A stretch of DNA of 64,000 bases from Candidatus Pacearchaeota archaeon UBA92 (GCA_002497285.1 DANJ01000011.1:3091-67090); one strand, 5' to 3'. Positions 31,040 through 44,610 are shown, counted from the first letter of the stretch. Program-made: numbers and translations. The notes: generated from the letters alone by a model not told the origin.

Positions 31040-31335
31040 CCTCTTACAGAATTCGCTTCTAATTCCTTTTTGAAATCATCCTTGGCAGAAGCAAACTTAA
31101 CCAAAACTTGAAGTTCCCTAAGGTCAGAATATCTAAGAGGGATGCTCCTATTTTCACTCCTTAGAAAATAAAAATCACGACTTCCTTTATTAGACAATCC
31201 GATTATGCCCTGCATACCGTATCCCTTTCTTTCAATCGCATCTCCAACTATAACTTCTGTACCTTCAAGTCCAGAAAAAATTTTTCTTCTTTCATCGACA
31301 TCCATAGGTAGATGTATTTCTTTCCAATATTTCAT
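31036..31335 (-). CDS. hypothetical protein
   Basis: 99-aa ORF with TTTATAAAA at 31367-31375 upstream. Confidence 0.4.
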   Translation of the reverse strand: MKYWKEIHLPMDVDERRKIFSGLEGTEVIVGDAIERKGYGMQGIIGLSNKGSRDFYFLRSENRSIPLRYSDLRELQVLVKFASAKDDFKKELEANSVRG

Positions 31336-31380
31336 GAATCCTCGCGGATTACATTTCTAAGAACAGTTTATAAAACTACC

Positions 31381-31389
31381 TATTAGGCA
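31381..31389. repeat. left 9-bp target-site duplication TATTAGGCA
   Basis: Identical 9-mer at 43829-43837, each abutting a terminal inverted repeat. Confidence 0.7.
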
Positions 31390-31406
31390 GGCTTTGTTTA
31401 ATAAGT
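31390..31406. repeat. left terminal inverted repeat GGCTTTGTTTAATAAGT
   Basis: Exact reverse complement of 43812-43828. Confidence 0.8.
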
Positions 31407-31466
31407 AGGGGTTGTTTAAATAATCCCTCCTTCCTAAGATATCTTCTAAAAATGAAGAAAGGAATC

Positions 31467-31946
31467 TTAGAAGGTATTATAGACCTTAATCGCTTTATTC
31501 AATTGAAATTCACAGTTGCCCCAATCAATATATTTACAAATATCCCTTGGATCAATAAATTTTCTTTCTAAAATTTCCCCGATTGCAGGGTCTTCGGTTT
31601 GATTATTAATTTTATCTACAAAAGCTGTATATCTTAATAAATAATGAATCTTTGATCCATCCCTTGGTATGACTTTTATGTAACCAACTCTTTTGATATT
31701 TTTTATTTTTAAATCTGCTTCTTCTTGTACTTCCCTTTTCAGAGTATCTTCAAAGGATTTATCTTCTTTTTCGGGTGTCCCTCCCGGAATTCCCCACATA
31801 CCATTATATTTAATCAAACAAACTTTCCCTTCTTTATCAAATATAAATGCATAAACTTGTGTTACATTATCCAAATTTTCAAAGTTTGTGTTATCATGCC
31901 ATTCATTATCTGAAATCCTTCCCTTAAAATCTACTCTAAATTTCAT
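31467..31946 (-). CDS. NUDIX hydrolase
   Basis: Nudix box GIPGGTPEKEDKSFEDTLKREVQEEADL. Confidence 0.85.
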   Translation of the reverse strand: MKFRVDFKGRISDNEWHDNTNFENLDNVTQVYAFIFDKEGKVCLIKYNGMWGIPGGTPEKEDKSFEDTLKREVQEEADLKIKNIKRVGYIKVIPRDGSKIHYLLRYTAFVDKINNQTEDPAIGEILERKFIDPRDICKYIDWGNCEFQLNKAIKVYNTF

Positions 31947-32027
31947 ATTAATAAATAACTTTTTAGCCTTAAAAGGTTTTCTTTTATAATTAAATAAATT
32001 TATAATGTTATATTTATTATTAAAAAA

Positions 32028-32972
32028 ATGAGATATGTGAGAAATTTAAATTCGATTAATAAAAATGATGTTGAAATAGCGGGTGGAAAGGGCGCTTCAT
32101 TAGGAGAGCTAATTAACTCTAATATAGAAGTACCTGGAGGATTTGTTATACTCTCAAATGCATTTGAAGAATTTATTAAAGAAACCGATACAACAATAGA
32201 AATTGACTCAGAATTGGATTCTATAAATCTAAAAGATATTAATAGCATAAATAGGGCTTCAGAAAGGATAAATTTTGCAATTGTTTCTAAGGATATCCCT
32301 AAAAAGATTAAAGATGAAATAATAAAATCTTATAATCAATTAAAATCAAAATATGTTGCTGTTAGGAGTTCAGCGACTTCAGAAGATGGCGCTAATTCAG
32401 CATGGGCAGGACAATTAGATACTTATCTTAATACTTCAAAAGAAAACCTAATAATGAATATTAAAAGATGTTGGGCCTCTCTGTTCACTCCAAGAGCATT
32501 AATATATCGTCTTGAAAAAAAATTAAAAAAAGAAAAAATATCTGTGGCTGTAGTTATTCAAAAAATGATAGATAGCAGTGAATCTGGAGTTGCATTTTCT
32601 GTCCACCCAATTACAAAAGACAAAAACCAATTAGTAATTGAGGCATGTTTTGGGTTAGGAGATGCTATAGTTTCTGGAGAGATCATCCCCGATAGTTATG
32701 TTTTAAATAAGAGTGACTGGAGAATTTTAGATATAAATATCAACAATAAAGTAAAAGGATTGTTTAAGGAAAAGAATGGTGAAAATAAATGGAAACAATT
32801 AAAGAAAAAGGGGGGAAATCAGGTTTTGACAAAAAAAGAAATTGTAGTATTGGGCAAATTAGTAAAAATGATTGAAGAGCATTATAAATTCCCGGTAGAT
32901 ATTGAATGGGCAAAAAGGAAGGATAAATTTTATATTCTTCAAAGTAGACCAATTACGACTTTATTGGATTAA
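32028..32972 (+). CDS. PEP synthase/PPDK N-terminal ATP-grasp (nucleotide-binding) domain, stand-alone
   Basis: GGKGASLGELINSNIEVPGGFVI, VAVRSSATSEDGANSAWAGQLDTYLN, VAVVIQKMIDSSESGVAFSVHP, DIEWAKRKDKFYILQSRPIT. Confidence 0.85.
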   Translation: MRYVRNLNSINKNDVEIAGGKGASLGELINSNIEVPGGFVILSNAFEEFIKETDTTIEIDSELDSINLKDINSINRASERINFAIVSKDIPKKIKDEIIKSYNQLKSKYVAVRSSATSEDGANSAWAGQLDTYLNTSKENLIMNIKRCWASLFTPRALIYRLEKKLKKEKISVAVVIQKMIDSSESGVAFSVHPITKDKNQLVIEACFGLGDAIVSGEIIPDSYVLNKSDWRILDININNKVKGLFKEKNGENKWKQLKKKGGNQVLTKKEIVVLGKLVKMIEEHYKFPVDIEWAKRKDKFYILQSRPITTLLD

Positions 32973-33002
32973 CTTTTTAAATCTGTTTGTGTTATCCTTG
33001 TT

Positions 33003-34082
33003 ATGAAATTAGAGATATTTAAAGCAGGAAAAATATTTAACCCAATTAAGGGAACAAAAAACAAACCAGTACTCCAACATAAAAAGATAAAGGTGACAGT
33101 TCCCGCAAGATTAAATACAATGTGTTTTGATTTAAAAACACTAACTAAGCCTAAAAAGAAATTTATTTATAATGCTGGGGAACTTGCTTTCTCAGTAAAT
33201 GTAAATACTTATGCAAAATTAATAATTACAAAAAATGATAATGGTTCTGTTTTGCTTTCTAAAAACACAAAAAGAAAATCGATAGTTAAACATGCAGCAT
33301 TAATGATGAAAAATGCTCTTAAAATAAATGATTTGTTTTTAATTGAAGCAAACAATGTATATGACTATCCTCACGCTGGTCTTGGATCTTCATCTTCATT
33401 AATTAGTGCAGTTTGTATAGCCATCAATGAGGCCTATGGTAAACCATTAAGCCCAAGACAATTAACACTATTTATTGCTCAAAATCATGGAGAAGAAATT
33501 GAATCAGATGATGAAAGATTAATTCATGTCCAGTGTAATGGTGGTTCTCCTTCTGTAGCCCTATATTATGGAGGTATGCAGATAATTGCAGGAGAATCAA
33601 ATATGATCTTTAGAGAGGAATTTCCTGAAGAATATACATTTGTTTTTGGAATACCTAAGATGTATAAAAAGTGTGATGCTCAATGCTTAATGGCAATCGA
33701 AAAAACTCAATTCCCAAAAATGCTAAAATCGAGTAAAGATTTCTCAAAAGAGATTGCTTGGAAAGTTTTACATGAACTTATTCCTTCAATAATGAATAAA
33801 GATATGAAATCTATCGGAGACATATTACAATATTATAGATTTAATACCGGGAGTTTAGTAATAGATTCAAGAACATGGAAAGGATTATATTCTTTAGTAA
33901 AATCATTGATGAAGTATAGAAATGATGCAACCCCCATAATCTCTGTTTCATCTTGTGGTCCTGCAATATATATTTTAACAAAAAATCCAAAGATGATAGA
34001 AAAAATTTTAAAAGATAAAAAAATGATTACATTCACAGCTAAACCAAATAATAAAGGTTATTCAATCTTATATAATTTTTAA
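33003..34082 (+). CDS. GHMP-kinase-superfamily enzyme, beta-RFAP-synthase-like
   Basis: P-loop-like PHAGLGSSSSLISAVCIAINEAYG. The N-terminal VTVPARLNTMCFDL resembles the PSRLH start of beta-ribofuranosylaminobenzene-5'-phosphate synthases rather than that of classical kinases. Confidence 0.55.
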   Translation: MKLEIFKAGKIFNPIKGTKNKPVLQHKKIKVTVPARLNTMCFDLKTLTKPKKKFIYNAGELAFSVNVNTYAKLIITKNDNGSVLLSKNTKRKSIVKHAALMMKNALKINDLFLIEANNVYDYPHAGLGSSSSLISAVCIAINEAYGKPLSPRQLTLFIAQNHGEEIESDDERLIHVQCNGGSPSVALYYGGMQIIAGESNMIFREEFPEEYTFVFGIPKMYKKCDAQCLMAIEKTQFPKMLKSSKDFSKEIAWKVLHELIPSIMNKDMKSIGDILQYYRFNTGSLVIDSRTWKGLYSLVKSLMKYRNDATPIISVSSCGPAIYILTKNPKMIEKILKDKKMITFTAKPNNKGYSILYNF

Positions 34083-35192
34083 TAATTCTTCGTAACTTTT
34101 AAGATATTCTGGATAAAAATAAATTGTATAAGTATAACCCTCCTCTCTTTTTATTGAGTGGATTCTAAATTTTATTTCGATATCTTTTGGGAGCCTTTTC
34201 TTTAAAATTATACAAACCATCGGCATAGAAGGGGTTTCAAGATATTTGATATCTTTTTCATTTAATCTTTTAATAAATTTATTTTTATTTGAGATAATTT
34301 TCATCGCTCTTTTCTTAAATCCTTTTTTGGATAAATATTCTGTATTTGCCCAAATAATTGCAGGCAATATTCCAGACCTTGATCCTATAAGTGTGTCGTC
34401 AAAAATTTTAACATATTCAGTATTACTACCAATATTATCTTGCAAACCCTTTCTACACAAAAAAATTCCTGAGGGGTAATAAAGGAAACCATATTTATGA
34501 TAATCAAAGGTTAATGATTTAACAAAAGAATTTCCAAAGTCTGAATATTTATTTTTATTTAGAAATGGGATAAAAAATCCTCCAACAGCAGCATCAAGGT
34601 GCAAAAAACATGGTTTTTTATACTCTTTGATAAATTCGGATATTGATTCTATATTGTCTATTATTCCAGTTGAAGTATGCCCTAAGGTTCCAACTATAAT
34701 TAAAGGAGATTCAATATTTTTTGTTGCTTCCTTAAGTTGAGTTTTATCAAGGGGTTTGTTCCAAAATTTAGCTTTTGTTTTTATTATTTTTAAATCAAGC
34801 AATCTTGCTGCTTTATCTAAAGAATAATGGCCCTCACTATGAGAAATAATAATGGGCCTGCCTTTCTTTTTAAGATATTCTCTTCCTATCCATAATGCCA
34901 TAATATTTCCTTCGGTTGAACCACTATTAATGTATCCATCAAGGTTAGAACCATGGAACCAATTAGAGATTTTTTTTATAACCTTATTCTCAAGTTCTCT
35001 ACAACTATCTTGAGAAAACTTCATCCTCGTAGTAGTGCCAATATTATTTGGGTTTAATTTTAATAATTGTTTTATTTCTTTCTTAAAATAATTTTGAGGT
35101 GTGGGAGGTTGAGGAATTCCGATTCTAAGTAAGGAAGTTTCTTTTTCTCTTTTTATTACCTTTTTTAATTTGTTTTTAATTTGTTTTATCAT
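34068..35192 (-). CDS. PLP-dependent group II amino-acid decarboxylase (MfnA-like)
   Basis: SGSTEGNIMALWIGREY, HLDAAVGGFFIPF, and SLTFDYHKYGFLYYPSGIFLCRK (PLP lysine in DxHK). Confidence 0.75.
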   Translation of the reverse strand: MIKQIKNKLKKVIKREKETSLLRIGIPQPPTPQNYFKKEIKQLLKLNPNNIGTTTRMKFSQDSCRELENKVIKKISNWFHGSNLDGYINSGSTEGNIMALWIGREYLKKKGRPIIISHSEGHYSLDKAARLLDLKIIKTKAKFWNKPLDKTQLKEATKNIESPLIIVGTLGHTSTGIIDNIESISEFIKEYKKPCFLHLDAAVGGFFIPFLNKNKYSDFGNSFVKSLTFDYHKYGFLYYPSGIFLCRKGLQDNIGSNTEYVKIFDDTLIGSRSGILPAIIWANTEYLSKKGFKKRAMKIISNKNKFIKRLNEKDIKYLETPSMPMVCIILKKRLPKDIEIKFRIHSIKREEGYTYTIYFYPEYLKSYEELLKII

Positions 35193-36748
35193 AGTCCTAA
35201 ACTTATATACTGAACACCTTTTTTACTTATTATAAAAAGAACAGGTATTGTTAAATCTTCTCTTTGTGTTTTTTTCAATAGATTAGATAATTTATCGATA
35301 TCATTCTCAAAGACTTTAGTATATTTTTTTGGAAAATCTCCCACTATTTCCCCCATTTCATATATTAAATTGTAGTCTGGAACATAATCTCTTGGCAGAA
35401 GTTTAAGTGATTTCCCTTCTTCCCTCATAACAAATGGTTCTTCAGGATTCTTTGATATTGTAATAATCACTTTATTCTTAAAATTATTTTTATCAATCAA
35501 AAAAGAACCATAATATAAAACGTCCTTTCTTGAGGGGCTTAACCTAACAATATATATTTTATTTGGTTTCTTATTTTTAATCATAAATTTTTTTATGTTA
35601 TTATAGTCTCTTGAAAATAAGTGATCTGTATTAATTATATCTCCCTCTTCATCTCTTATAGTTATGCTCCAAATCTCTTCTTTCTTTTTCATAAAATGAT
35701 TTGGATTAAATTCCGATGGATTCCTATATATTTTTACTGGTAACAATTTGTCTGGATATAAATATTTTAAAATTTTAATCCCATCCCATCTTGATAACAA
35801 CTTATTTTCTTTAAAGGTATCACTAACTGATTTATTAATTGTATATCTTGGTTTCCAAGAAACATATTTTTTTGCTTTATCAATACCATATATACGATTT
35901 CTTGATAAACTTATTATGTCTTCTTTTAAAAGGGAAGGTTTCTTATTTGATTCGTTATATTCTTTCTGTTGTTTTTGAGCAATTCTGAATAATTCTCTTA
36001 AAGTCGCAGATTTATCTATTCTTTTATCAAATATATTTGCAACCAGATTTAGATAATCTTTTTGTGATGTAAATCCAGAAGCGATATTAAAATCTTCATT
36101 TTTAATTTCTAAATTTTTAATAATTTTCATAATAAAATTTGATAAATCATTTTGATGAATAAAAGAAAAATTATTACTCCCATCACCAAACATTATAGCT
36201 TTATCTTTTTTTATTGCTTCAATAAATCTATTGAATTTATTTTTAAAATATAATCCAAATATAATTGGAAATCTAACTATAACAAAATCTATGTCCGACT
36301 TTTTTAAAATATTTTCTGCTTTTAATTTATAATTTCCATAGTAACTAGTAGGAATTTTGTTCGAATTTTCAAAGATAATTTTAGATTTATAATTTCCATA
36401 TACTGCCGATGATGAACAAAATATTATTCTAATATTTTTCTTTTTCTTTTTCAAATAACTAACTAAATTTTCCAATGTCTTATAATTAATTTTGGAAGAT
36501 TCTTCATTTAAAAATTCTGCTTTTCCTATAGTAAATATGATGTCAGAAATATTTTTTATTTTATCAAGTTTATTTAGATCTTCATTAATTATAAAATTAA
36601 TTTTTATTAATTGTTCATAACACTCCGGATTTTGAGGATATTTTTTATAATAAGTACCAATCAGCTCAAAATCATAATTGGTTAACGTTTCAGAAATAGA
36701 TTGAGCAACTTTACTAGATGCGCCAATAATGATGATTTTTCCTCTCAT
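35189..36748 (-). CDS. NAD-dependent epimerase/dehydratase (SDR) fused to an uncharacterised ~200-aa C-terminal domain
   Basis: KIIIIGASSKVAQS, CSSSAVYGNYK (S...YxxxK), VRFPIIFG. The C-terminal half has no motif I recognise. Confidence 0.6.
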   Translation of the reverse strand: MRGKIIIIGASSKVAQSISETLTNYDFELIGTYYKKYPQNPECYEQLIKINFIINEDLNKLDKIKNISDIIFTIGKAEFLNEESSKINYKTLENLVSYLKKKKKNIRIIFCSSSAVYGNYKSKIIFENSNKIPTSYYGNYKLKAENILKKSDIDFVIVRFPIIFGLYFKNKFNRFIEAIKKDKAIMFGDGSNNFSFIHQNDLSNFIMKIIKNLEIKNEDFNIASGFTSQKDYLNLVANIFDKRIDKSATLRELFRIAQKQQKEYNESNKKPSLLKEDIISLSRNRIYGIDKAKKYVSWKPRYTINKSVSDTFKENKLLSRWDGIKILKYLYPDKLLPVKIYRNPSEFNPNHFMKKKEEIWSITIRDEEGDIINTDHLFSRDYNNIKKFMIKNKKPNKIYIVRLSPSRKDVLYYGSFLIDKNNFKNKVIITISKNPEEPFVMREEGKSLKLLPRDYVPDYNLIYEMGEIVGDFPKKYTKVFENDIDKLSNLLKKTQREDLTIPVLFIISKKGVQYISLGL

Positions 36749-37836
36749 TTTCGTAGGTCGACAATATGTCTTAATTTGTGAGAGCTTGTTTTTGGAACCT
36801 CAATTTTATTTTGAAAGATAAATTCCTTCTTAGCGAAAATAAATGAAAGTTCTTTGATGATATCCTTTTCTTTATCTTTAAATTCAGATGGAAGAATAAA
36901 TTCAACATAATCTCTATTCTCTTTTGTTTTAAAATTAACAATAAATTCATTAGTATATTTTGATAAAGTATCTTCTATTTTTGTTTTTGATGTAAGCATT
37001 CCTTGCAATTTTATAAGGTCATCATCTCTTCCTGTAACTGAAAATTCACTTATTGAACCATCATCATTATATTTGACTTTTTCTAGAACATCTTTAGTAT
37101 TATATCTTATTATTTTTGTAGAACTATTATTTAAATCAGTTATTGCTAATTCTAAATTTTTATTTATCTCTACTGCCTCTACATATATCCCCTCATTAAT
37201 TACTTTTATTAATTTTGGATCTCCTTTTTTAGAAACTCCAAGGGCAGGACATTCTGTTAAACCAAAATGATTTACAACTTCAACACCCAAGTCTTTAAAT
37301 CGTGAAATATATGAATCTAATAACATTTCCCCTGCTACAAGAACTTTTTTTGGCATAATTTTCGGATTAATTTTATTTAAAACCTCAAGTAAACCAAGAG
37401 CATAGCTTGGAACTGAGAACCATACTGTTGGTTTCACCTTTAAAATAACTTCCATTATTTTTTCCTTGGGATATGTATTTGGAGCGCCTAATGGCAATAT
37501 TGATATGCCATCCAATAAACAAGCTCGTTCATACATACTGCCAGGAACATAATTTCCATATGCGAAAAGATTCAAAACAATATCTTTATTTGATACCCCC
37601 GATAGTTTTATCGATTTTCTTGTTCTGTTAATAAATCCTTCTACAGCTTTGTTAGAGTAAAAAACATAAAGAGCTTTTCCGGTTGATCCACTTGTAATTC
37701 TTAGTTCAAGAAAATTTTTAGGAACTATAAATGCCGATAGGTCTTTTTTCGTACTAATTTTAATCTTTTTCCAATCTTCAATAGATTTAATTTTATCTTC
37801 TCCAACTAAATCATTCATTTTTTTTATTATTTTCAT
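36745..37836 (-). CDS. adenylate-forming ligase, PaaK/CapK/coenzyme-F390-synthetase family
   Basis: TSGSTGKALYVFYS AMP-binding motif. The C-terminal SSHKLRHIVDLRK resembles the PaaK-type SGKxxRxxDxR ending. Confidence 0.65.
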   Translation of the reverse strand: MKIIKKMNDLVGEDKIKSIEDWKKIKISTKKDLSAFIVPKNFLELRITSGSTGKALYVFYSNKAVEGFINRTRKSIKLSGVSNKDIVLNLFAYGNYVPGSMYERACLLDGISILPLGAPNTYPKEKIMEVILKVKPTVWFSVPSYALGLLEVLNKINPKIMPKKVLVAGEMLLDSYISRFKDLGVEVVNHFGLTECPALGVSKKGDPKLIKVINEGIYVEAVEINKNLELAITDLNNSSTKIIRYNTKDVLEKVKYNDDGSISEFSVTGRDDDLIKLQGMLTSKTKIEDTLSKYTNEFIVNFKTKENRDYVEFILPSEFKDKEKDIIKELSFIFAKKEFIFQNKIEVPKTSSHKLRHIVDLRK

Positions 37837-37887
37837 AGTATTTATTTGGAAAGTATATTTTAAAAGCTTTCTAAACTTATTTTATTC

Positions 37888-38553
37888 ATGAATAAATCAA
37901 AAAATAATAAAGAAATTTGGAATAAGTTCTATAAAAAAAGTTCAAAGTATATATACTGACCGTCTGAAGAAATATTTACTTTTTCTGAAAAATATTTAGG
38001 AAACCTTAAGGGCAAAAAGGTTCTTGATATTGGGTGTGGGGCTGGAAGGCATTTATTGATGTTTGATTATAGGGGATGTATTACCTTTGGAATCGATAGT
38101 TCGAAAGAGGCTGTATCAACATCTAAAAAATTCTTGAAAAAGTGGAATGTTAATTCAGAAATAAGGTTGGCTAGTTCCACTAATATCCCCTATAATGATA
38201 ATTCATTTGATATTATTCTTCTTTGGGATATTTTTCATTACCTCTCAAAAAGAGATCAAGAAAAAACTATTGAAGAAATTATGCGAGTATCAAAAAATGG
38301 TGCATGGGTTATATTTTCACTTAGATCAAAAAATGATTCTAGATATAGGATAGGAAAAGAAATGAGAAAGAATACTTATTTACAAGATAAACCAGGAAAG
38401 AGAGATATTGTGATAGAATATTGGAGCAAAAAAGAAGCGGAAAGTTTTTTTAGATTAGATAATTTATTGATTGGAGAGAAAATTATTGCCCCCATTGGTA
38501 GATATAATGTAAAAAGTGCTCATTGGATTCTAGCTGGGAAAATTAACAAATAA
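37888..38553 (+). pseudogene. class I SAM-dependent methyltransferase interrupted by one in-frame TGA (37957-37959)
   Basis: ATG at 37888 is in frame with ORF 38056-38553. Motif I VLDIGCGAGRH (38020-38052) lies between the TGA and the first possible restart, so any restart product lacks the SAM-binding loop. Confidence 0.7.
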
Positions 38554-38587
38554 ATAACTTTAAAAATGTAACTTGGTATTTCATTTT

Positions 38588-39487
38588 ATGGAAATAAATA
38601 AAATATTGAAAAATATCTCCAGAGATGTAGCCAAGGTACAACACGAATCAGGCGTTTTATCACAATGGCCAATAAATTCAGTAGAGGCAATGTATTATTC
38701 TGGCCCTTTTTTAATCCCAGAAGTAGGGAAAAATTTAATGAGTTGGAAGAATGATCCAAAAAGTTTATTTGAAAAAGGATTGATGCCCGGAAAACTTTCA
38801 GGATTAATTTTTTATTTTTTAAATGAAAAGGCAAAAGAGATGATGGGAGAAGAGAATCATAAAAATCTATTAATGGGAATTTTATCAAAAATCATGCTAT
38901 TTAAAAAAGAAAATTATTTTACTGATTATACCTCCAAATCATGGATGCCTGAATGGGATTTGGATGCTAATCCAAAAAAAGTAGATGTAAAAAAATTAGT
39001 ATTTTTACTCGATAACTTAACAGAAATGATTAATCCTATTTTTAGATCTAATGGAGTACAATTGTTTTTTGATGATAACAATGTTTATCGTTATTATTAT
39101 AGATTAGAATTAAACAAGAAAATAATTATTGTATCTCCAAAACAAGGTATGAAAATTGATTTTTTTGAACATATTATTGAACCTGAAAATCTTGATCATT
39201 CTCAAGTATTTATTGAAAACGGGGGGGAAATTATCGAAGGAGATTCGAATATTTTATTTGAAGAAGTAAAAAATAAAATTAAAAAATTAAAAAATTCTAA
39301 AGAGTTCAATAGGGAATATGTTATTAACCAAATTTTTGATGCTTTTGATTTTGATATTCCAGAAGCACAAAAAGGATTTCTTAAAACACCCTTTCCTGAA
39401 GAAATAGTTAAATTTTATATGAAAACATGTGAGATTCCAGAAGATAAACTTAGTCAAGGAATATATCATATTTTAGGAGGTTCATAA
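38588..39487 (+). CDS. hypothetical protein (candidate substrate-binding partner of the split dikinase)
   Basis: ~300-aa ORF (first ATG at 38588, TTG at 38573). Its stop abuts the start of the swivel-domain gene (TAAATG). No motif recognised. Confidence 0.5.
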   Translation: MEINKILKNISRDVAKVQHESGVLSQWPINSVEAMYYSGPFLIPEVGKNLMSWKNDPKSLFEKGLMPGKLSGLIFYFLNEKAKEMMGEENHKNLLMGILSKIMLFKKENYFTDYTSKSWMPEWDLDANPKKVDVKKLVFLLDNLTEMINPIFRSNGVQLFFDDNNVYRYYYRLELNKKIIIVSPKQGMKIDFFEHIIEPENLDHSQVFIENGGEIIEGDSNILFEEVKNKIKKLKNSKEFNREYVINQIFDAFDFDIPEAQKGFLKTPFPEEIVKFYMKTCEIPEDKLSQGIYHILGGS

Positions 39488-39808
39488 ATGATACTCAAAG
39501 GCATTCCTGCTTCTGAAGGAGAATTTGAAGGAACTCTCAAGATTTTCTCAAAAGAGAAAGAATTTAATAAAAATGATATTCTTGTAGCTATCTCAACCTC
39601 TCCCGAAATGAGTGCAGAGATGTTAAATGCTGGAGCAGTTCTTACAGAGTATGGAGGATTGTTATCTCATGCTTCAATATTTTGCAGGGAGATTAAAAAA
39701 CCATGTGTTGTTGGAATAAAAGATTTATTAAACGTAGTTTCTGATGGTATGAAAGCCAAAATTAATGGTAAAAATGGTATTGTTGAAATTAGCCCAAATG
39801 AAGAATAA
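39488..39808 (+). CDS. PEP-utilising enzyme mobile (swivelling phosphohistidine) domain, stand-alone
   Basis: ILVAISTSPEMSAEMLNAGAVLTEYGGLLSHASIFCREIKKPCVVGI, with the catalytic His in GGLLSHAS. Confidence 0.8.
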   Translation: MILKGIPASEGEFEGTLKIFSKEKEFNKNDILVAISTSPEMSAEMLNAGAVLTEYGGLLSHASIFCREIKKPCVVGIKDLLNVVSDGMKAKINGKNGIVEISPNEE

Positions 39809-40853
39809 AAAGTGGTATTCAAGACTTTTAAAAAGAGTGAACTTATCAACTACATATGAAATATTTAATCTCTTTAAAACTTCGAAATTTGTTGTATTGA
39901 AACAAGAAGAATTTAAAAATCATTTCTATAGAGAGATAGCCTTTATACTGGGCCCGTATGTTTTATGTTTTGCAAAGAATAAGACTATGAAAAATGAATT
40001 AGTTTTAAATTGGACAAGTAAAAATCCCCAAATCCCTTTTGGAAAAATTTTCAAAAACAAAAATACTGAAAGAAAACTGATTGAAAAGACGATCAATAGT
40101 AGAAAATATATTGTTTCAGGAGAAATTAATGCTACTATTGAAGAAAAATTTAGAGGTTTAGAGATTCTTAAGGTTTCGGCCTTTTGCGGAAATGTCATGA
40201 ATTCTAAGGAGGATATTAATATTTCAAAAAAATTTATTTCAAAAAATAAATCCGATTTATATTTATTTCCTGAATCATATCCTTTCTCAAGGATAGTTTT
40301 TAATTCAAAAGGATTTCCGGAAGGCACAATATTTGGCAGGTATGGTAACCATGGACCTGAAACATACTTTATGAAAAAAAATCCGGTTCAAATAAGCAAG
40401 TCTACAGCTTTTGCTGATGAAAAAAAAATAATGAAAAAGGGAAGATTTCCAAAAATAATTGATCACAAAGGAATAAAAGTGGCAGTAATAATCTGTTATG
40501 ATTTATTAAATCCAAGAATCTCCCATTATTTGGCTAATAAAGATATAGACATTGTTTTTATTCCTTCCATGATTCCTTCCAATGATGTAGAAAAATGGAA
40601 AAAATTTCTTTATGTTAGGGGGCAGGAAATACAATGTCCGTTAATTCTAGCAAGCAATAAAGACAAAAGGAATATTTGTATCCCAAAAATATTATATTAT
40701 GATCCTATTGAAGAAAAAGTTAATGAGTATAATAAACCTCAAGTTTTTGAAATTCCATTTGGAAAATTGAAGATAAAAGAATCCCCAAGAGTACATTGGA
40801 GCTGGTTATTGAAGAATAAGGTGTTTGGTCCTTTTTCAAAAGATTTTGATTAA
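39798..40853 (+). CDS. carbon-nitrogen hydrolase (nitrilase superfamily)-like protein
   Basis: LYLFPESYPF (Glu motif) and GIKVAVIICYDLLNP (Cys motif). Alternative starts are at 39765 and 39774. Confidence 0.5.
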   Translation: MKNKKWYSRLLKRVNLSTTYEIFNLFKTSKFVVLKQEEFKNHFYREIAFILGPYVLCFAKNKTMKNELVLNWTSKNPQIPFGKIFKNKNTERKLIEKTINSRKYIVSGEINATIEEKFRGLEILKVSAFCGNVMNSKEDINISKKFISKNKSDLYLFPESYPFSRIVFNSKGFPEGTIFGRYGNHGPETYFMKKNPVQISKSTAFADEKKIMKKGRFPKIIDHKGIKVAVIICYDLLNPRISHYLANKDIDIVFIPSMIPSNDVEKWKKFLYVRGQEIQCPLILASNKDKRNICIPKILYYDPIEEKVNEYNKPQVFEIPFGKLKIKESPRVHWSWLLKNKVFGPFSKDFD

Positions 40854-41476
40854 TTTTTTGCTTTATCTATGAACTTTTTAACTTTTAAGAGGTCTCTAAA
40901 ACCCATGTTGTTTCTAAGGGAAGATTCAGCATCTACAGCATATGGTTTAACTTTACTAATGGCTCCTTTAACATTTGATTCATTCAAACCTCCTGCCAAG
41001 ATTATGGGTATATTGTTATTTTTTACAATTTTTTTACTTAGGTTCCAATCATGAACTTTACCCGTTCCTCCGAGGTGATGTCCAAGTTTTGAATCAAGTA
41101 AAATATAATCTGCCTCACAATATAACTCTATCTTTGATTCATCATTTTTATTAGTAATATGCACAACAGGTATGATTTTTATATCACAATTTTTTGATAA
41201 ATATTCTACATTTGTTTTAGTAGGATTCAACAATTGAATTCCCCAGGGAGAAATATATTCTATCAAATTCAATAATTTAATTGGATCATCTTCAATAGTT
41301 AAAATAATAAATTTTCCTTTATTATTATGGGATATGATCTTTTTAGCTTCGGTTGGATTTAAACTTAAATTAGTCTCAGGAATCTCTATAAGTAATCCTA
41401 AAAAATCAGCCCCATATTCAATAGCCTTTTTTGCTTCATTGCTAGAATGTATTCCACAAATTTTTACTTTTACCAT
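40850..41476 (-). CDS. trpF: phosphoribosylanthranilate isomerase (TrpF) family
   Basis: MVKVKICGIHSSNEAKKAIEYGADFLGLL, GGTGKVHDWNL, PIILAGGLNESNV, AVDAESSLR. The start is taken at the internal Met; the ORF-track extension to 41665 is non-homologous. Confidence 0.8.
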   Translation of the reverse strand: MVKVKICGIHSSNEAKKAIEYGADFLGLLIEIPETNLSLNPTEAKKIISHNNKGKFIILTIEDDPIKLLNLIEYISPWGIQLLNPTKTNVEYLSKNCDIKIIPVVHITNKNDESKIELYCEADYILLDSKLGHHLGGTGKVHDWNLSKKIVKNNNIPIILAGGLNESNVKGAISKVKPYAVDAESSLRNNMGFRDLLKVKKFIDKAKN

Positions 41477-41553
41477 AATCTCAATACGAAAATCAAGTTT
41501 TTTAATATTTGTAAAATGCAAAGATTTATATCTTGTAACTATGGAGTAGCAAT

Positions 41554-42123
41554 ATGGCAAAAAGAATAGAATTTGTTTGTACAGCAAATAATGGGAAAAG
41601 TCCGGTAGCATTAGCTGTAGCCAGAAATTATGTTGGAAAAAATGAAAACTATGCATTGTCTTCAACAGGAACCATGGTTGATGTGATTACAAGGTCTGAT
41701 GGCAATCAACTTTCTAAATACTTAAACCAATTTTTAAGTGATGCCTATGAGCGAAATATTTTGTCTACAAAAGAAGTTGAGAATTTAGAAAAGAATCCTA
41801 GAGGAATATTAGAAAAATTTCTCAGAAACGAAAGAACAAATAGGGACAGATATCTTACTGGAATAGGTTTAGAATTTGTAGATTATCCTAATCAAACACA
41901 TGCAATTGAGGGTGGAGGGATAATTGCTTGTATTGGAGATTCAAATTTAAAGAGAGTTAGGGAGATATATAACTGTTCAGATCATTCACCAAGAATCATA
42001 AATCTAATGGGTGAAGAATATCCTGATGTAAGTAATCAATGGGTGTTAACTTATGATGAGTTTAGAGATGTAGCAAGAGTGGTGAGAGAAAATACGATTA
42101 GATTGATTGAGTTAGATAAATAA
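41554..42123 (+). CDS. low-molecular-weight phosphatase-like protein with variant P-loop (CX5K)
   Basis: IEFVCTANNGKSPVA compared with the canonical VCxGNxCRS. Confidence 0.4.
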   Translation: MAKRIEFVCTANNGKSPVALAVARNYVGKNENYALSSTGTMVDVITRSDGNQLSKYLNQFLSDAYERNILSTKEVENLEKNPRGILEKFLRNERTNRDRYLTGIGLEFVDYPNQTHAIEGGGIIACIGDSNLKRVREIYNCSDHSPRIINLMGEEYPDVSNQWVLTYDEFRDVARVVRENTIRLIELDK

Positions 42124-42165
42124 TTTTCTATTTTTTCAAAATGTAAGTCTGCTTTCAAACATCTA

Positions 42166-42354
42166 TTACTTTTTGGTTTTAGGTTCCAAATCCCAATATG
42201 CACTTTTACAATTAGGGCATATTCTCGGTTTTTCTTTTAACTCGCCCTCAAGTTGCGATAATTCAACACGAGGTATCCACTCGTGACCGCACCTTAAACA
42301 TCTGAAAGCATTAACCTCCTTCTTAATTCTATACTTATCTTTAGTATCTTTCAT
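42166..42354 (-). CDS. small zinc-ribbon protein
   Basis: CLRCGHEW...CPNCKS. Confidence 0.5.
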   Translation of the reverse strand: MKDTKDKYRIKKEVNAFRCLRCGHEWIPRVELSQLEGELKEKPRICPNCKSAYWDLEPKTKK

Positions 42355-42529
42355 AGTTTATTTAAGTTTAACTCCTTTATATAATTATCGTTTATAAAAA
42401 CTATGTTAATATTAGTTAATTTTATTATAATGTGGGATATAATTGTATTTTTATCGTCGGTTATTGTATTTACTTATAAAAGTAAGAAATAGAAAGGTTT
42501 ATATAGTAGTTATTACTTATATAAGTAAG

Positions 42530-43792
42530 ATGATAAAAGTAAATAATCAAATACAAACAACGGACATAAGAAAACTTAACCGAGAAGAACGAGGTAAGTT
42601 AATCTTTGAGAATGGAAGGATTAGACAGAAAGATAACTATTGGGTTGTTGATTCTCAAACTTCATTTAAAGCATATAAAGTAAGTTTTAATGGACACAAA
42701 CCAAAATGCACTTGCCCAGATTGTCAAATAAGAAAAGGCAAATGCAAACATATTTTCGCAGTAGAACTTTATATTAAAAGACAAATAGATGAAGAAGGTA
42801 AGATAACAGAAACAAGAGGAGTAAACATAAAACAATATTCTCAAAAATGGTCTGCTTATAATAAATCTCAAACAAACGAAAAGTTAATTTTTATGAAATT
42901 GTTAAAAGATTTATGTGAGAATGTAGAACAGCCAGAATATAAATTTGGTCGTCCAACTTTGCCTTTTAGTGATATGCTCTTTGGCTCTGTAATGAAAGTT
43001 TATACAGGATTTTCATTAAGAAGATTTATGTCTGATATGAAAATTGCCCACGATTACGGATTAGTTGATAATGTGCCTTGTTATTCTTCTCTATCTAATT
43101 TTATGAATAAAGAAGAAGTTAAGTCAATATTGGAAAATCTAATAACAATTAGTTCTCTACCTCTTAAAGAAATTGAAAAAGATTTTGCAGTTGATAGTTC
43201 AGGATTTTCAACTTCAAGATATGCTCGTTGGTTTGATTACAAATGGGGGAAAGAAAGAAAGTATAAAGTTTGGTTAAAAGCACATTTAATTTCAGGAGTT
43301 AAAACTAATGTTATTACAGGAGTTAAGATAACAGAAGGACAGGAAAACGACAGCCCACAATTAAAAGAATTAGTTAAGAAAACGGCAGAGAACTTTGGAA
43401 TTTCAGAAGTAAGCGGAGATAAGGCATACAACAGCCGAGAGAATCTTAAAGTTATTGAAGAAGTTGGTGGAATTCCTTATATTCCTTTCAAAAAGAATGT
43501 TACAGGAAAAAGAGGTGGTTGTTCAATTTGGGGTAAGATGTATCATTATTTTATGTATAAACACGATGAATTTTTAGAACACTATCATAAAAGGTCTAAT
43601 TCAGAAACAATTTTTCATATGATTAAAACAAAATTCAGAGGAGATATTAAAAGCAAAAAGCAGACCGCACAATTTAACGAACTTCTGATTAAAGTTTTAT
43701 GTCATAATGTTTGTGTTGTAATTCAAGAAATAAACGAATTGGGGGTAAAAGCAGAATTTAATCTTGAACAGACAAGAGAAATTTCTGTTTAA
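42530..43792 (+). CDS. DDE transposase (IS4/IS5 superfamily-like) with N-terminal SWIM zinc finger
   Basis: SWIM motif CTCPDCQIRKGKCKHIFAVELY. Candidate DDE residues are in FAVDSSGFS, VSGDKAYNS and RSNSETIFHMIKTKF. The start is taken at MIKVNN. Confidence 0.8.
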   Translation: MIKVNNQIQTTDIRKLNREERGKLIFENGRIRQKDNYWVVDSQTSFKAYKVSFNGHKPKCTCPDCQIRKGKCKHIFAVELYIKRQIDEEGKITETRGVNIKQYSQKWSAYNKSQTNEKLIFMKLLKDLCENVEQPEYKFGRPTLPFSDMLFGSVMKVYTGFSLRRFMSDMKIAHDYGLVDNVPCYSSLSNFMNKEEVKSILENLITISSLPLKEIEKDFAVDSSGFSTSRYARWFDYKWGKERKYKVWLKAHLISGVKTNVITGVKITEGQENDSPQLKELVKKTAENFGISEVSGDKAYNSRENLKVIEEVGGIPYIPFKKNVTGKRGGCSIWGKMYHYFMYKHDEFLEHYHKRSNSETIFHMIKTKFRGDIKSKKQTAQFNELLIKVLCHNVCVVIQEINELGVKAEFNLEQTREISV

Positions 43793-43811
43793 AAAGTATG
43801 GACTGATTAGG

Positions 43812-43828
43812 ACTTATTAAACAAAGCC
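43812..43828. repeat. right terminal inverted repeat ACTTATTAAACAAAGCC
   Basis: Exact reverse complement of 31390-31406. Confidence 0.8.
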
Positions 43829-43837
43829 TATTAGGCA
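43829..43837. repeat. right 9-bp target-site duplication TATTAGGCA (contains the uppP stop codon)
   Basis: Identical to 31381-31389. The uppP TAA is at 43833-43831. Confidence 0.7.
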
Positions 43838-44610
43838 ATACTCAAATAAATCCCAATACTTGCAGCCAATAACAAACAATAAAGTCCAAACCACATAAAA
43901 CTTTTCCTATTTACAAGAATATAATTAAAAATGAGGTGTATAGCTATAATTCCTACAATAAAGCTAGCCAATGCCGCCCAAATCAAATCAGGAGGCAGAG
44001 TATTATTCCCTATGGTGATTAAATTTGCTCCAAAAACCACAGGGATTGAAAGTAAAAATGAAAATTTCATCGCCTCTTTTTCATTTAAGCCAAGCATAAT
44101 TCCAGAGGATATTGTTGACCCGCTTCTTGATATTCCGGGAATAATTGATAAAGCTTGAGCAACCCCAATAAAAAAGGCCCCTCTAAAACCAAGTTTTTCC
44201 TGTTTAACCTTTCCTGGAACACTCGCGATAAGCAAAAACATACCTGTAAGTGCAAACCCTGAAGCTATAATCCCAAGATTAGATAGAACACTGTCAAAAT
44301 AAGATTTAGCAAAAAATCCAAAAAGCGCTGTAGGCAAAGAAGCAATTATAAGTAAAATGCCCATTCTTCCTTTCTCACTCCTAAATTTTCCCCTAAGCAA
44401 TTCTTCAATGATATCAACAATATCTTTTCCAAAATAAACGAAAACAGCCATGAGTGTTCCGAAATGTAAAGCAACATCGAAGATTAATCCAACTTTGTAA
44501 TCGAGTAATCTTTCAACTAAAACTAAATGTCCTGAACTTGAAATAGGCAACCATTCAGTAGATCCCTGTACGATAGCTAAAATGATAGCTGAAAAAAGTT
44601 CGTTTACCAT
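43831..44610 (-). CDS. uppP: undecaprenyl-diphosphate phosphatase (BacA/UppP)
   Basis: GSTEWLPISSSGHL and PGISRSGSTI motifs; polytopic membrane protein. Confidence 0.9.
   Translation of the reverse strand: MVNELFSAIILAIVQGSTEWLPISSSGHLVLVERLLDYKVGLIFDVALHFGTLMAVFVYFGKDIVDIIEELLRGKFRSEKGRMGILLIIASLPTALFGFFAKSYFDSVLSNLGIIASGFALTGMFLLIASVPGKVKQEKLGFRGAFFIGVAQALSIIPGISRSGSTISSGIMLGLNEKEAMKFSFLLSIPVVFGANLITIGNNTLPPDLIWAALASFIVGIIAIHLIFNYILVNRKSFMWFGLYCLLLAASIGIYLSIA

What the first reader, a model, noticed from the sequence alone, without database searches (positions are those of the whole stretch)
31381..43837. 12.4-kb cargo transposon with perfect 17-bp TIRs and a 9-bp target duplication, inserted exactly at the uppP stop codon
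Read directly from the sequence. The left end is TATTAGGCA|GGCTTTGTTTAATAAGT (31381-31389|31390-31406). The right end is ACTTATTAAACAAAGCC|TATTAGGCA (43812-43828|43829-43837). This gives the classical TSD-TIR...TIR-TSD layout of a DDE transposon. The only transposase (SWIM zinc finger + DDE, 42530-43792) ends 19 bp inside the right TIR, and I found no convincing matching left TIR next to it. The mobile unit therefore appears to be the whole 12,439 bp with about 14 genes. Nine-bp duplications are known for IS10, IS50 and IS903-type elements. The interior looks more AT-rich than the flanks: my spot counts of 60-nt lines gave 23-27% GC in the 33-40 kb region, against mostly 33-50% (one line ~23%) in flanking genes. 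Removing 31390-43837 in silico leaves the uppP stop followed 47 nt later by the start of the 99-aa gene with its TATA box, which is the normal intergenic spacing here. Cargo-carrying unit transposons in small archaeal genomes are rarely described.
Basis: partly seen in the sequence, partly recalled or inferred. Interest (0 to 1): 0.85.

Follow-up and report, generated by a model that had tools for sequence, protein, structure and literature searches.

The report
Cargo-carrying IS903-like transposon in a Pacearchaeote
The 12.4-kb segment is a genuine single-transposase transposon that moved as one piece, carrying a 12-gene metabolic cluster into a tiny archaeal genome, and it belongs to a widespread, apparently undescribed family of IS903-like transposons that usually carry restriction-modification genes.

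Summary
A perfect 17-bp TIR (GGCTTTGTTTAATAAGT, 31390-31406 / 43812-43828) is flanked by a perfect 9-bp duplication (TATTAGGCA). The interior is 28% GC against 35.5% in the flanks.

- A relative with 95%-identical uppP has the uninterrupted site (uppP stop, 39 nt, then the homologue of the 99-aa gene).
- The same ~12.4-kb element sits at two other chromosomal sites in two other archaeal genomes (90% and 78% nt identity). Each has its own perfect 9-bp duplication (CTAATACGT, TTTAGCTGC).
- The cargo cluster also exists without transposon parts in other genomes.

The transposase is an IS5-family, IS903-group DDE enzyme with an extra N-terminal SWIM finger. The TIR matches the E. coli IS903 repeat at 15 of 17 positions, and 9 bp is the IS903-group duplication length.

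Of 80 relatives fetched from archaeal and a few bacterial genomes, 52 are complete elements of 1.8-11.4 kb with perfect 9-bp duplications. Most carry restriction-modification genes. The window's copy is the largest and carries a rare conserved pathway cluster of unknown product.

Verdict: real; a new variant of a known kind (an IS with passenger genes). Whether it is active now is untested.

The parts
31381..31389 (.). Left copy of the 9-bp target-site duplication, TATTAGGCA
   Evidence: A single copy of the homologous sequence is present at the empty site in L018.
31390..31406 (+). Left terminal inverted repeat, GGCTTTGTTTAATAAGT. It contains the outer 12-bp motif TGTTTAATAAGT at 31395-31406.
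   Evidence: It matches the IS903 IR GGCTTTGTTGAATAAATC at 15 of 17 positions. The same TIR is found in L020, L021, L028-L030, L035, L081, L101, L103 and L110.
31413..31424 (+). Inner (subterminal) copy of the 12-bp motif at the left end (TGTTTAAATAAT; family consensus TGTTTAAAAAGT), in direct orientation to the outer copy. Proposed second transposase-binding site.
   Evidence: The motif is conserved at this position in 11 of the 12 other listed ends; L033 carries the two end arrangements swapped. It co-varies with the TIR in L032 and L024 (TGCCC.../TGCCT...).
31467..31946 (-). Cargo gene 1: NUDIX hydrolase (159 aa)
   Evidence: Pfam PF00293.
32028..32972 (+). Cargo gene 2: stand-alone ATP-binding domain of a PEP-synthase/PPDK-type enzyme (314 aa)
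   Evidence: PF01326, E 5e-92. NCBIfam hits cover the N-terminal third of PEP synthase, rifamycin phosphotransferase and PigC.
33003..34082 (+). Cargo gene 3: GHMP-kinase-fold protein with weak similarity to beta-RFAP synthase (359 aa)
   Evidence: all hits below the curated cut-offs.
34068..35192 (-). Cargo gene 4: PLP-dependent decarboxylase, MfnA/histidine-decarboxylase-like (374 aa)
35189..36748 (-). Cargo gene 5: NAD-dependent epimerase/dehydratase with about 200 aa of extra C-terminal sequence (519 aa)
   Evidence: This protein was the probe that found the second copy, L101.
36745..37836 (-). Cargo gene 6: adenylate-forming enzyme, PaaK-like (363 aa)
37888..38553 (+). Cargo gene 7: SAM-dependent methyltransferase, interrupted by an in-frame TGA at 37957-37959 (Trp24 in the intact L103 orthologue). 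Probable pseudogene.
   Evidence: The same TGA is present in two other assemblies of this population (L001, L002). The gene is split in L101.
38573..39487 (+). Cargo gene 8: 304-aa protein of unknown function
   Evidence: No Pfam, NCBIfam, PADLOC or PDB sequence hit. Only 23 homologues among 5.8 billion proteins. The model is confident (pLDDT 89), yet no PDB fold match has E<=0.001.
39488..39808 (+). Cargo gene 9: PEP-utilising-enzyme mobile (phospho-histidine swivel) domain (106 aa)
   Evidence: PF00391.
39765..40853 (+). Cargo gene 10: carbon-nitrogen hydrolase-like protein (362 aa; the true start may lie a little downstream)
40850..41476 (-). Cargo gene 11: phosphoribosylanthranilate-isomerase-like (TrpF fold) protein (208 aa, as called in public assemblies)
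   Evidence: PF00697.
41554..42123 (+). Cargo gene 12: 189-aa protein with weak similarity to low-molecular-weight phosphatases
   Evidence: The orthologues in L107 and L108 hit PF01451.
42166..42354 (-). Backbone gene: 62-aa zinc-ribbon protein (CxxC...CPxCKSxYW), transcribed divergently from the transposase
   Evidence: It travels with the transposase in L010, L020, L021, L028 and L030. A similar gene is found in 12 of 50 elements. Function unknown.
42355..42529 (.). Divergent intergenic control region between the zinc-ribbon gene and the transposase. It holds TATA-like boxes and two near-palindromes, TTACTTATAAAAGTAAG and TTACTTATATAAGTAAG.
   Evidence: Read from the sequence. It is conserved with L010. 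Any regulatory role is inference.
42530..43792 (+). Transposase (420 aa): an N-terminal SWIM zinc finger plus an IS903-type DDE domain
   Evidence: PF01609 E 5e-22 and PF04434. NF033579 covers profile positions 2-287 of 289 at 134.8 bits against a cut-off of 140; the IS903 transposase hits the same model. tblastn against IS903 gives E 4e-6. Y352, R355, E359 and K366 are invariant in 18 relatives. dN/dS is 0.06-0.12.
43786..43797 (+). Inner 12-bp motif at the right end (TGTTTAAAAAGT). It is inverted relative to the outer copy and overlaps the transposase stop codon (43790-43792).
43812..43828 (-). Right terminal inverted repeat (ACTTATTAAACAAAGCC on the + strand)
43829..43837 (.). Right copy of the 9-bp target-site duplication, TATTAGGCA. 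It contains the uppP stop codon.
43831..44610 (-). Flanking host gene uppP (BacA family, 259 aa). It is intact because the duplication restores its last codons and stop.
31036..31335 (-). Flanking host gene of 99 aa, unknown function. Its start codon is 54 nt from the left TIR (47 nt from the uppP stop once the element is removed).
   Evidence: The homologue in L018 follows uppP directly.

Best explanation
Window 31390-43828 is one 12,439-bp transposon of an IS903-like lineage (IS5 family). It has a short left end of about 37 bp, a 10.7-kb passenger region, and a right-hand backbone of about 1.65 kb. The backbone holds a 62-aa zinc-ribbon gene, a divergent promoter region, a SWIM+DDE transposase and the right end.

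Proposed mechanism, by analogy with IS903: the transposase binds the 12-bp motifs in both ends, cuts at the GGC termini, and joins the 3' ends to a target cut with a 9-bp stagger. Repair of the gaps gives the 9-bp duplication.

Shown here:
- The element's boundaries and its duplication.
- An uninterrupted site in a close relative.
- Two more insertions of the same 12.4-kb unit at unrelated sites, each with its own 9-bp duplication.
- Fifty-two related elements in the genome collection, plus others on two Logan/metagenome contigs and on IMG/VR contigs, with the same end and duplication signature.
- A transposase with the IS903-type catalytic signature under purifying selection.

Inferred: the chemistry, the roles of the SWIM finger and the inner motifs, and whether this copy can still move.

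The passenger is a conserved but rare 11-12-gene pathway cluster that is chromosomal, without transposon parts, in other small archaeal-type genomes. It was captured into the slot that in most relatives holds restriction-modification genes. It then spread to at least three genomes with higher GC than its own.
For: - Ends and duplication.
- Empty site: L018 and L019.
- Second copy, L101: 12,428 bp, 89.9% nt identity across window 31376-43852. It lies between a KaiC-like gene and an HD-domain gene near ThrRS, with TSD CTAATACGT. The flanks show no other similarity to the window.
- Third copy, L103: 12,432 bp, 78.1% identity over window 31390-43834. TSD is TTTAGCTGC, next to genes for an Hjc-type Holliday-junction resolvase, a proteasome subunit and a beta-CASP nuclease.
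- IS903 relationship: the IS903 IR read from E. coli plasmid NZ_CP110979.1 is GGCTTTGTTGAATAAATC at both ends. The best NCBIfam model is the one IS903 hits. The pairwise tblastn E-value is 4e-6. Y(2)R(3)E(6)K is present in both. The IS903 group makes 9-bp repeats (PMC8431375).
- Family: 52 of 80 genome loci have GGCTTTG...CAAAGCC ends with a perfect 9-bp TSD and spans of 1,802-11,371 bp. Chance expectation is about 3e-5 per locus.
- Shared backbone: it is limited to window 31390-31426 and 42184-43828.
- Cargo without a transposon: L106, L107, L108.
- Selection: dN/dS is 0.04-0.31 for the transposase and all cargo genes.
- Composition: element GC is 0.28 against flanks of 0.33-0.36 in the window and L101. 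In L103 only the right flank (0.365) stands above the element (0.275); the left flank is 0.285.
Against: - No transposition was observed. The insertion is present in every contig that carries the identical uppP or 99-aa protein, so no polymorphic or excised allele was seen in this population.
- One cargo gene carries a fixed nonsense codon, so the cargo may be partly decaying.
- The transposase scores just under the curated cut-off of the IS903-type model (134.8 against 140), and it is only 23% identical to the IS903 transposase.
- How the cluster was captured is unknown.
- Assembly errors in the metagenome contigs cannot be excluded formally. However, three independent assemblies give the same structure at the window's site, and two others hold the other two copies.
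Confidence: 0.9

Rival explanations
1. The mobile unit is only a small IS of 1.4-1.8 kb at the right end. On this reading, the left 17-mer is a stray solo end, and the genes between are native to this chromosome.
For: Only one transposase is present, and it sits at the extreme right. The smallest family member is 1.8 kb (L032).
Against: - No TIR-like sequence lies within 3 mismatches next to the transposase.
- The 9-bp duplication flanks the whole 12.4 kb.
- Relatives lack all 12.4 kb at this site.
- The complete unit recurs at two other sites with other duplications.
- The interior GC differs from the flanks.
Confidence: 0.02
2. The element arrived by transposition but is now a fixed, immobile relic in this genome, or it depends on a transposase supplied in trans.
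For: The insertion is present in all contigs of this population. The methyltransferase gene is a pseudogene. No empty-site or circle junction was seen.
Against: - The transposase ORF is full length, its catalytic residues are intact, and dN/dS is 0.06-0.12 against the other copies.
- Both TIRs are perfect and the duplication is undecayed.
- A cluster of 71 sequences at 90% identity or more to this transposase exists in public data.
Confidence: 0.3
3. The segment is a genomic island, provirus or plasmid integrated by a site-specific recombinase, and the inverted repeats are incidental.
For: It has foreign composition and is inserted at a gene's 3' end. Relatives of the transposase occur on contigs that IMG/VR classes as viral.
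Against: - There is no integrase, resolvase, replication or capsid gene inside.
- The three insertion sites and their 9-bp repeats are unrelated, unlike att sites.
- The TIR plus fixed-length duplication signature is repeated in 52 related genome-collection loci and on several further contigs.
Confidence: 0.02
4. It is a decayed compound transposon of the Tn903 kind. Two IS copies once flanked the cluster, and the left copy was later deleted down to its outer end.
For: This is a plausible route for the original capture of the cluster. IS903 forms such compound transposons (established knowledge of Tn903).
Against: - The left end is the same 37-bp structure in all three cargo copies and in restriction-modification-carrying relatives.
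- So the single-transposase architecture is the ancestral, transposing form and not a recent decay product.
- There is no transposase remnant near the left end.
Confidence: 0.1

Closest known systems
IS903 / IS903B (IS5 family, IS903 group; Enterobacteria)
   Same: - The terminal repeat is nearly the same: GGCTTTGTTGAATAAATC against GGCTTTGTTTAATAAGT, 15 of 17 positions.
- Both make a 9-bp target duplication (PMC8431375).
- Both have a DDE_Tnp_1 transposase that hits NCBIfam NF033579 over the full profile.
- Both have the Y(2)R(3)E(6)K signature.
- Target choice looks symmetrical around the duplication. From memory, IS903 is also reported to prefer a palindromic target; I did not check this.
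   Different: - IS903 is 1,057 bp with one gene; this element is 12,439 bp with 14 genes, and its family is never smaller than 1.8 kb.
- The transposase has an extra 105-aa N-terminal region with a SWIM zinc finger and is only 23% identical to IS903's.
- Each end has a second, inner copy of the binding motif. The inner copy is direct at the left end and inverted at the right.
- The hosts are mostly DPANN and other archaea.
tIS ('transporter IS': IS with passenger genes; described for the IS1595 and IS66 families)
   Same: It has IS-type ends, one transposase, passenger genes inside the repeats, and a duplication at the outer boundaries. This is the definition given in the TnCentral preprint 10.1101/2021.05.26.445724.
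   Different: [quoted passage not shown] This element is IS5/IS903-derived. The cargo is much larger (10.7 kb, 12 genes). Cargo carriage is the norm across the family, not an exception.
Tn903 (compound transposon, aphA1 flanked by two IS903 copies)
   Same: It uses IS903-type ends and transposase to move passenger DNA.
   Different: Tn903 needs two complete IS copies. Here there is a single transposase and only a 37-bp left end.
Transposon-like restriction-modification units flanked by inverted repeats and short duplications (Furuta, Abe & Kobayashi 2010, PMC2853133)
   Same: Restriction-modification genes lie between terminal inverted repeats with a short target duplication, and were found by comparison with an empty site. 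Most relatives of the window's element carry Type IIG, Type III or C5-methylase systems.
   Different: Those cases were bacterial, with 8-bp duplications and no clear resident transposase. No archaeal case survived their screen. Here the transposase is encoded in the element, and the window's copy carries a metabolic cluster instead.

Membership tests
IS5 family, IS903 group | DDE transposase of the IS903 type | tested here: inconclusive
   The best NCBIfam model is NF033579, covering profile positions 2-287 of 289, E 4e-39, but at 134.8 bits against a curated cut-off of 140. A 198-aa fragment of the IS903 transposase hits only this model, at 215.7 bits. Direct tblastn gives 23% identity over 186 aa, E 4e-6.
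IS5 family, IS903 group | Catalytic DDE with the Y(2)R(3)E(6)K signature | tested here: met
   Window transposase: D222 (DSSG), D297 (GDKAY) and Y352-R355-E359-K366, all invariant in 18 relatives. IS903 has ...YNRRSIAETAMYRVK..., read. D222 aligns with the IS903 DSTG motif.
IS5 family, IS903 group | Terminal inverted repeats of about 18 bp beginning GGC | tested here: met
   A 17-bp perfect TIR, GGCTTTGTTTAATAAGT, identical at 15 of 17 positions to the IS903 IR read from NZ_CP110979.1.
IS5 family, IS903 group | 9-bp target-site duplication | tested here: met
   Window, L101, L103, 52 genome loci and 4 IMG/VR elements on 5 contigs. The group's property is as stated in PMC8431375.
IS5 family, IS903 group | Size of 950-1150 bp with only the transposase gene | tested here: not met
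   The window element is 12,439 bp with 14 ORFs. The family range is 1,802-12,439 bp with a median of 5,456 bp. The size range for the group is from PMC8431375.
tIS (IS with passenger genes) | Passenger genes lie between IS-type ends with a single transposase, and the whole moves as a unit | tested here: met
   The same 12.4-kb unit is found at three unrelated sites, each with its own duplication. An empty site exists in L018.
Compound (composite) transposon | Two complete IS copies flanking the cargo | tested here: not met
   There is one transposase gene. The left end shares only 31-37 bp with relatives. No other TIR copies occur in the window.
Mutator-like / IS256 (the group in which SWIM fingers are typical) | MULE / IS256-type transposase domain | tested here: not met
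   The catalytic domain is PF01609 (DDE_Tnp_1). There is no MULE or Transposase_mut hit. Only the zinc finger is SWIM.
Tn3-family or other unit transposons with a resolution system | Large DDE transposase plus a resolvase and res site | tested here: not met
   No resolvase or recombinase domain was found among the 14 ORFs.
Known anti-phage defence island (cargo) | Cargo proteins match models of defence systems | tested here: not met
   PADLOC gave only weak fold-level hits (a NUDIX fragment; DndA/SspA at about 20 bits). This contrasts with relatives whose cargo is restriction-modification.

The most novel reading that the evidence does not exclude
The window's element would be the largest known member of an undescribed, widespread family of SWIM-finger, IS903-derived cargo transposons. 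On this reading the family is a main vehicle for moving restriction-modification systems, and occasionally whole metabolic or glycan gene clusters, between the reduced genomes of DPANN and other archaea. It would have two-site asymmetric ends and would select a palindromic target that looks like archaeal BRE/TATA promoter elements.
Probability: 0.45. Interest if true: 0.75.

Novelty: new variant of a known kind. Interest (0 to 1): 0.62.

Why it matters
DPANN archaea have very small genomes, and little is known about how they gain genes. This is a clear, sequence-resolved case: a single-enzyme transposon delivered a complete 12-gene pathway cluster to at least three different genomes. The evidence includes the empty site, the donor-type locus and the independent insertions.

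The family also links restriction-modification mobility in archaea to a defined transposase. It extends the 'IS with passenger genes' class to the IS5/IS903 lineage. The near-identity of the ends with E. coli IS903 shows how conserved the recognition of the ends is across domains.

A one-protein transposon that tolerates 10 kb or more of cargo in archaea could also serve as a genetic tool. The cargo itself is of interest: it is a rare conserved cluster of unknown product, and it includes a confidently modelled protein with no PDB fold match.

Tried and rejected
- Inner left TIR next to the transposase: none within 3 mismatches. Reading 42100-42640 showed only AT-rich promoter-like sequence and two near-palindromes. 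The small-IS reading was rejected.
- Empty site among contigs encoding the identical uppP or the identical 99-aa protein: all 21 contigs read carry the insert. The empty site came only from the 95% relative found by protein search.
- L009, a 1,377-bp contig with a 97%-identical transposase: it is truncated, diverges at the 3' end and lacks a TIR, so it says nothing about boundaries.
- My first inverted-repeat script searched only within 250 nt of the transposase stop and missed elements with cargo on both sides. A search for GGCTTTG/CAAAGCC plus a matching 9-mer fixed this.
- L073's 10.8-kb pair was a false pair. The true element there is 4,518 bp.
- L081 has the TIR pair but no duplication, so it was not counted.
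- L106 as a decayed transposon: rejected. It has no TIR within 4 mismatches and no transposase remnant, and its zinc-ribbon homologue is on the wrong side of the cluster.
- Cargo as a defence system: no support from PADLOC.
- The 304-aa protein as the substrate-binding domain of a rifampicin-phosphotransferase/PigC-type enzyme: no PDB sequence hit, and no fold match despite a model with pLDDT 89. The idea remains unsupported.
- PDB sequence search with the transposase: no hit.
- Literature searches found no description of this family. Filee et al. 2007 (PMC1847376) could not be read. ISfinder could not be queried.

Full report
**1. Observation**

The left junction is TATTAGGCA|GGCTTTGTTTAATAAGT, at 31381-31389 | 31390-31406. 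The right junction is ACTTATTAAACAAAGCC|TATTAGGCA, at 43812-43828 | 43829-43837.

With up to three mismatches the 17-mer occurs only at these two places, in inverted orientation. The 9-mer occurs only at these two places. The uppP gene (43831-44610, minus strand, BacA family) has its stop codon inside the right copy of the duplication. The only transposase gene (42530-43792) stops 19 nt before the right repeat. No repeat-like sequence lies on its upstream side. GC is 0.281 inside the element against 0.354 and 0.356 in the flanks.

**2. Gene content**

Pfam and NCBIfam identify the following ORFs, from left to right:
- a NUDIX hydrolase;
- a stand-alone ATP-binding domain of the PEP-synthase/PPDK type;
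- a GHMP-kinase-fold protein;
- a PLP-dependent decarboxylase;
- a 519-aa epimerase/dehydratase fusion;
- a PaaK-like adenylating enzyme;
- a SAM methyltransferase broken by an in-frame TGA at 37957-37959;
- a 304-aa protein with no family;
- a phospho-histidine swivel domain;
- a CN-hydrolase-like protein;
- a TrpF-like isomerase;
- a weakly phosphatase-like protein;
- a 62-aa zinc-ribbon protein;
- the transposase.

There is no integrase, resolvase or second transposase. The window comes from, or is nearly identical to, Candidatus Pacearchaeota archaeon CG1_02_32_132. In GenBank the transposase is labelled only 'hypothetical protein'.

**3. Is it an insertion?**

All contigs read that encode the identical uppP or the identical 99-aa neighbour carry the element. 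The insertion is therefore fixed in that population.

The closest different uppP (95% identity) lies on contig L018. There the uppP stop is followed 39 nt later by a 97-aa homologue of the 99-aa gene, then by AlaRS. The junction in L018 reads gtcgcTTAATAGGaagttttata. The window with the element and one duplication copy removed reads ttgccTAATAGGtagttttata. DNA identity is 84% on the uppP side and 92% on the AlaRS side, and nothing matches 31390-43828. A more distant relative (L019, uppP 74%) has uppP directly next to AlaRS, with conserved gene order on both sides.

**4. Does the whole 12.4 kb move as one unit?**

A scan of metagenome contigs with the 519-aa cargo protein found L101, from contig VAPK010012485.1 of GCA_006243085.1.
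- L101 holds a 12,428-bp element that aligns to window 31376-43852 at 89.9% identity. Its flanks share no other similarity with the window.
- It lies between a KaiC-like ATPase gene and an HD-domain gene, near archaeal ThrRS.
- It has the same TIRs and its own perfect duplication, CTAATACGT.

A third copy is L103 (the same contig as L104, and as L022 from GCA_964534185.1).
- It is 12,432 bp and 78.1% identical over the full length.
- It lies next to genes for an Hjc-type resolvase, a proteasome subunit and a beta-CASP nuclease.
- Its duplication is TTTAGCTGC.

Three unrelated sites, three different 9-bp duplications and one structure are direct evidence that the complete unit transposes.

**5. 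Which transposon family?**

The transposase has a DDE_Tnp_1 domain and a SWIM finger. Its best NCBIfam model is NF033579 (IS5 family), matched over positions 2-287 of 289. The score is 134.8 bits, just under the 140-bit cut-off.

I recalled the IS903 end from memory, used it as a query, and read the real sequence in E. coli plasmid NZ_CP110979.1. IS903B there begins GGCTTTGTTGAATAAATC and ends with the inverse of the same 18 bases. The window's repeat matches it at 15 of 17 positions. The IS903 transposase hits only NF033579 and aligns to the window's enzyme with E 4e-6. Both carry Y(2)R(3)E(6)K. The IS903 group is described as 950-1150 bp with 9-bp duplications (PMC8431375).

So the ends, the duplication length and the catalytic core are IS903-type. 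The size, the gene content and the extra 105-aa SWIM region are not.

**6. The family**

The transposase has more than 6,000 homologues, mostly from Pacearchaeota, Woesearchaeota and Nanoarchaeota. I fetched 80 loci from the species-representative genome collection. I then searched for [GA]GCTTTG...CAAAGC[CT] pairs whose outer 9-mers are identical.

Fifty-two loci have such a pair around the transposase. Chance expectation is about 3e-5 per locus. Including the window, the spans run from 1,802 to 12,439 bp with a median of 5,456 bp. Hosts include DPANN lineages, Methanosarcinales, Hadarchaeota, Aenigmatarchaeota and a few bacterial bins. Four more complete elements lie on five contigs that IMG/VR classes as viral.

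Similarity between the window and close relatives (L010, L020, L021, L029) is confined to 31390-31426 and 42184-43828. These two stretches are the backbone; everything between is a cargo slot.

Among 123 cargo proteins of 170 aa or more from the other elements, the commonest families are:
- N6_Mtase (20) and Eco57I (16);
- N6_N4_Mtase (8);
- C5 DNA methylase (5) and Methylase_S (5);
- PD-(D/E)XK nucleases (6);
- ResIII (3).

The usual cargo is therefore restriction-modification. L025 carries a glycosyltransferase/radical-SAM cluster. The window's element is the largest and has the most unusual cargo.

**7. The cargo**

The 304-aa protein has only 23 homologues among 5.8 billion proteins. Looking these up showed the same gene set in three further contexts:
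- in the same order but without TIRs, transposase or backbone in L106, where cluster and flanks have a homogeneous GC of about 0.30;
- in rearranged order between the genes for the two PheRS subunits in L108;
- in rearranged order, with UvrA, UvrC and SAM-synthetase genes close by, on a 985-kb contig, L107.

The cargo is thus a coherent, conserved pathway cluster that the transposon captured. An L106-like low-GC genome is the likeliest type of donor; this is inference.

All cargo genes and the transposase show dN/dS of 0.04-0.31 between copies. The history is mosaic. Against L103 the transposase is 97% identical in protein while the cargo is 66-86%. Against L101 the transposase is 88% and ten of the twelve cargo genes compared are 87-94% identical (PRAI 81%, the phosphatase-like protein 78%). 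Backbone and cargo have therefore recombined.

The product of the pathway is unknown. No defence-system model matches. The 304-aa protein gives a confident model (pLDDT 89) with no PDB fold match.

**8. Mechanism and confidence**

The best explanation is DDE cut-and-paste or replicative transposition of IS903 type, acting on the outer ends of a single-transposase element with a large passenger region. The evidence shows the structure, the insertion, the repeated mobility of the unit and the family signature. The chemistry, the roles of the SWIM finger, the zinc-ribbon protein and the inner motifs, and present-day activity are inferred. My confidence that this is a unit transposon that inserted as one piece is 0.9.

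Rivals:
- A small IS plus native genes: refuted by the empty site and the other copies.
- A recombinase-driven island: no recombinase, and no common attachment site.
- An immobile relic: possible but untested (0.3).
- A compound-transposon origin for the capture: possible, but this concerns history only.

**9. Novelty**

[quoted passage not shown] Furuta et al. 2010 found transposon-like restriction-modification units only in bacteria and without a clear transposase. A 2026 survey of archaeal IS does not mention SWIM, IS903 or passenger genes. Eight full-text searches found no description of this family.

ISfinder itself could not be queried, so some members may already have names. I rate the element a new variant of a known kind. 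It uses known chemistry and a known end sequence, in a new architecture and host range, with systematic cargo carriage.

Noticed in passing
window 31395-31406, 31413-31424, 43786-43797, 43812-43823; also the ends of L020, L021, L024, L028-L030, L032, L035, L101, L103: Each end holds two copies of a 12-bp motif (TGTTTAAWAAGT). The two copies are direct at the left end. At the right end the inner copy is inverted and overlaps the transposase stop codon. In L032 and L024 the TIR motif is TGCCC/TGCCT, and there the inner copies change in the same way. This co-variation points to functional binding sites and to asymmetric ends, unlike IS903.
   Followed up: partly
55 reconstructed insertion sites (window 31361-31389 + 43838-43857; L020-L103): Target sites share a palindromic pattern around the 9-bp duplication: T-14, T-12, T-10, A-9, A-8, T-4, T-3 | N9 | A+3, A+4, T+7, T+8, T+9, A+12, A+14. 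Per-position chi-square p-values go down to 2.5e-8. The half-site AAAnnTTTAnAnA resembles an archaeal BRE/TATA promoter. The window's own site matches only partly.
   Followed up: partly
window 45433-48462 (-), especially about 47178-47749: The leucyl-tRNA synthetase (1009 aa) carries an inserted serine-hydrolase domain (PF06821). The close relative L018 has an 821-aa LeuRS without it; window 47178-47749 has no counterpart there. L019's LeuRS (1144 aa) carries an alpha/beta-hydrolase plus NUDIX insert.
   Followed up: no
window 37888-38553, stop codon at 37957-37959: The cargo methyltransferase has an in-frame TGA where the intact L103 orthologue has Trp24. The same TGA is present in two other assemblies of this population, and the gene is split in L101. 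This is either decay of one cargo gene or, less likely, recoding.
   Followed up: partly
window 38573-39487 (+): The 304-aa cargo protein has only 23 homologues in 5.8 billion proteins and no Pfam, NCBIfam or PDB sequence match. Its AlphaFold model is confident (pLDDT 89.4, pTM 0.89), yet no PDB fold match has E<=0.001. It always sits directly upstream of the phospho-histidine swivel-domain gene.
   Followed up: partly
window 42166-42354 (-); L010, L020, L021, L028, L030, L033, L068, L072, L078, L084, L094, L095: A small zinc-ribbon protein (C-x2-C ... CPxCKSPYW) is encoded divergently from the transposase in 12 of 50 elements. In restriction-modification-carrying relatives it is the first gene of the cargo operon and overlaps the next gene. 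It is retained in the window although the restriction-modification genes are gone. Its function is unknown.
   Followed up: partly
window 31036-31335 (-) and L018 10820-11682: The 99-aa gene beside the insertion looks only about 40% identical by eye to its L018 counterpart; blastn found no DNA match between the two genes. The neighbouring genes are far more conserved (uppP 95% in protein, AlaRS 92% in DNA). L018 also has an extra 113-aa ORF. The uppP-AlaRS gap appears to be a variable spot.
   Followed up: no
L058 859-5984 and 5994-11452: Two different elements of the family abut each other. The second is inserted exactly at the first one's duplication, so the 9-mer TAACTCTTA occurs three times. 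The family can evidently insert next to an existing copy.
   Followed up: no
L110-L116 (IMG/VR contigs): Four complete family members of 3.9-4.4 kb with perfect 9-bp duplications lie on five contigs that IMG/VR classes as viral (L112 and L113 carry the same element). L110 has the identical 17-bp TIR. These could be vectors between genomes, if the contigs are truly viral.
   Followed up: partly
L025 9716-19308: Another non-defence cargo in the family: a 9.6-kb element with four glycosyltransferases, a radical-SAM/SPASM enzyme and a histidine phosphatase.
   Followed up: partly
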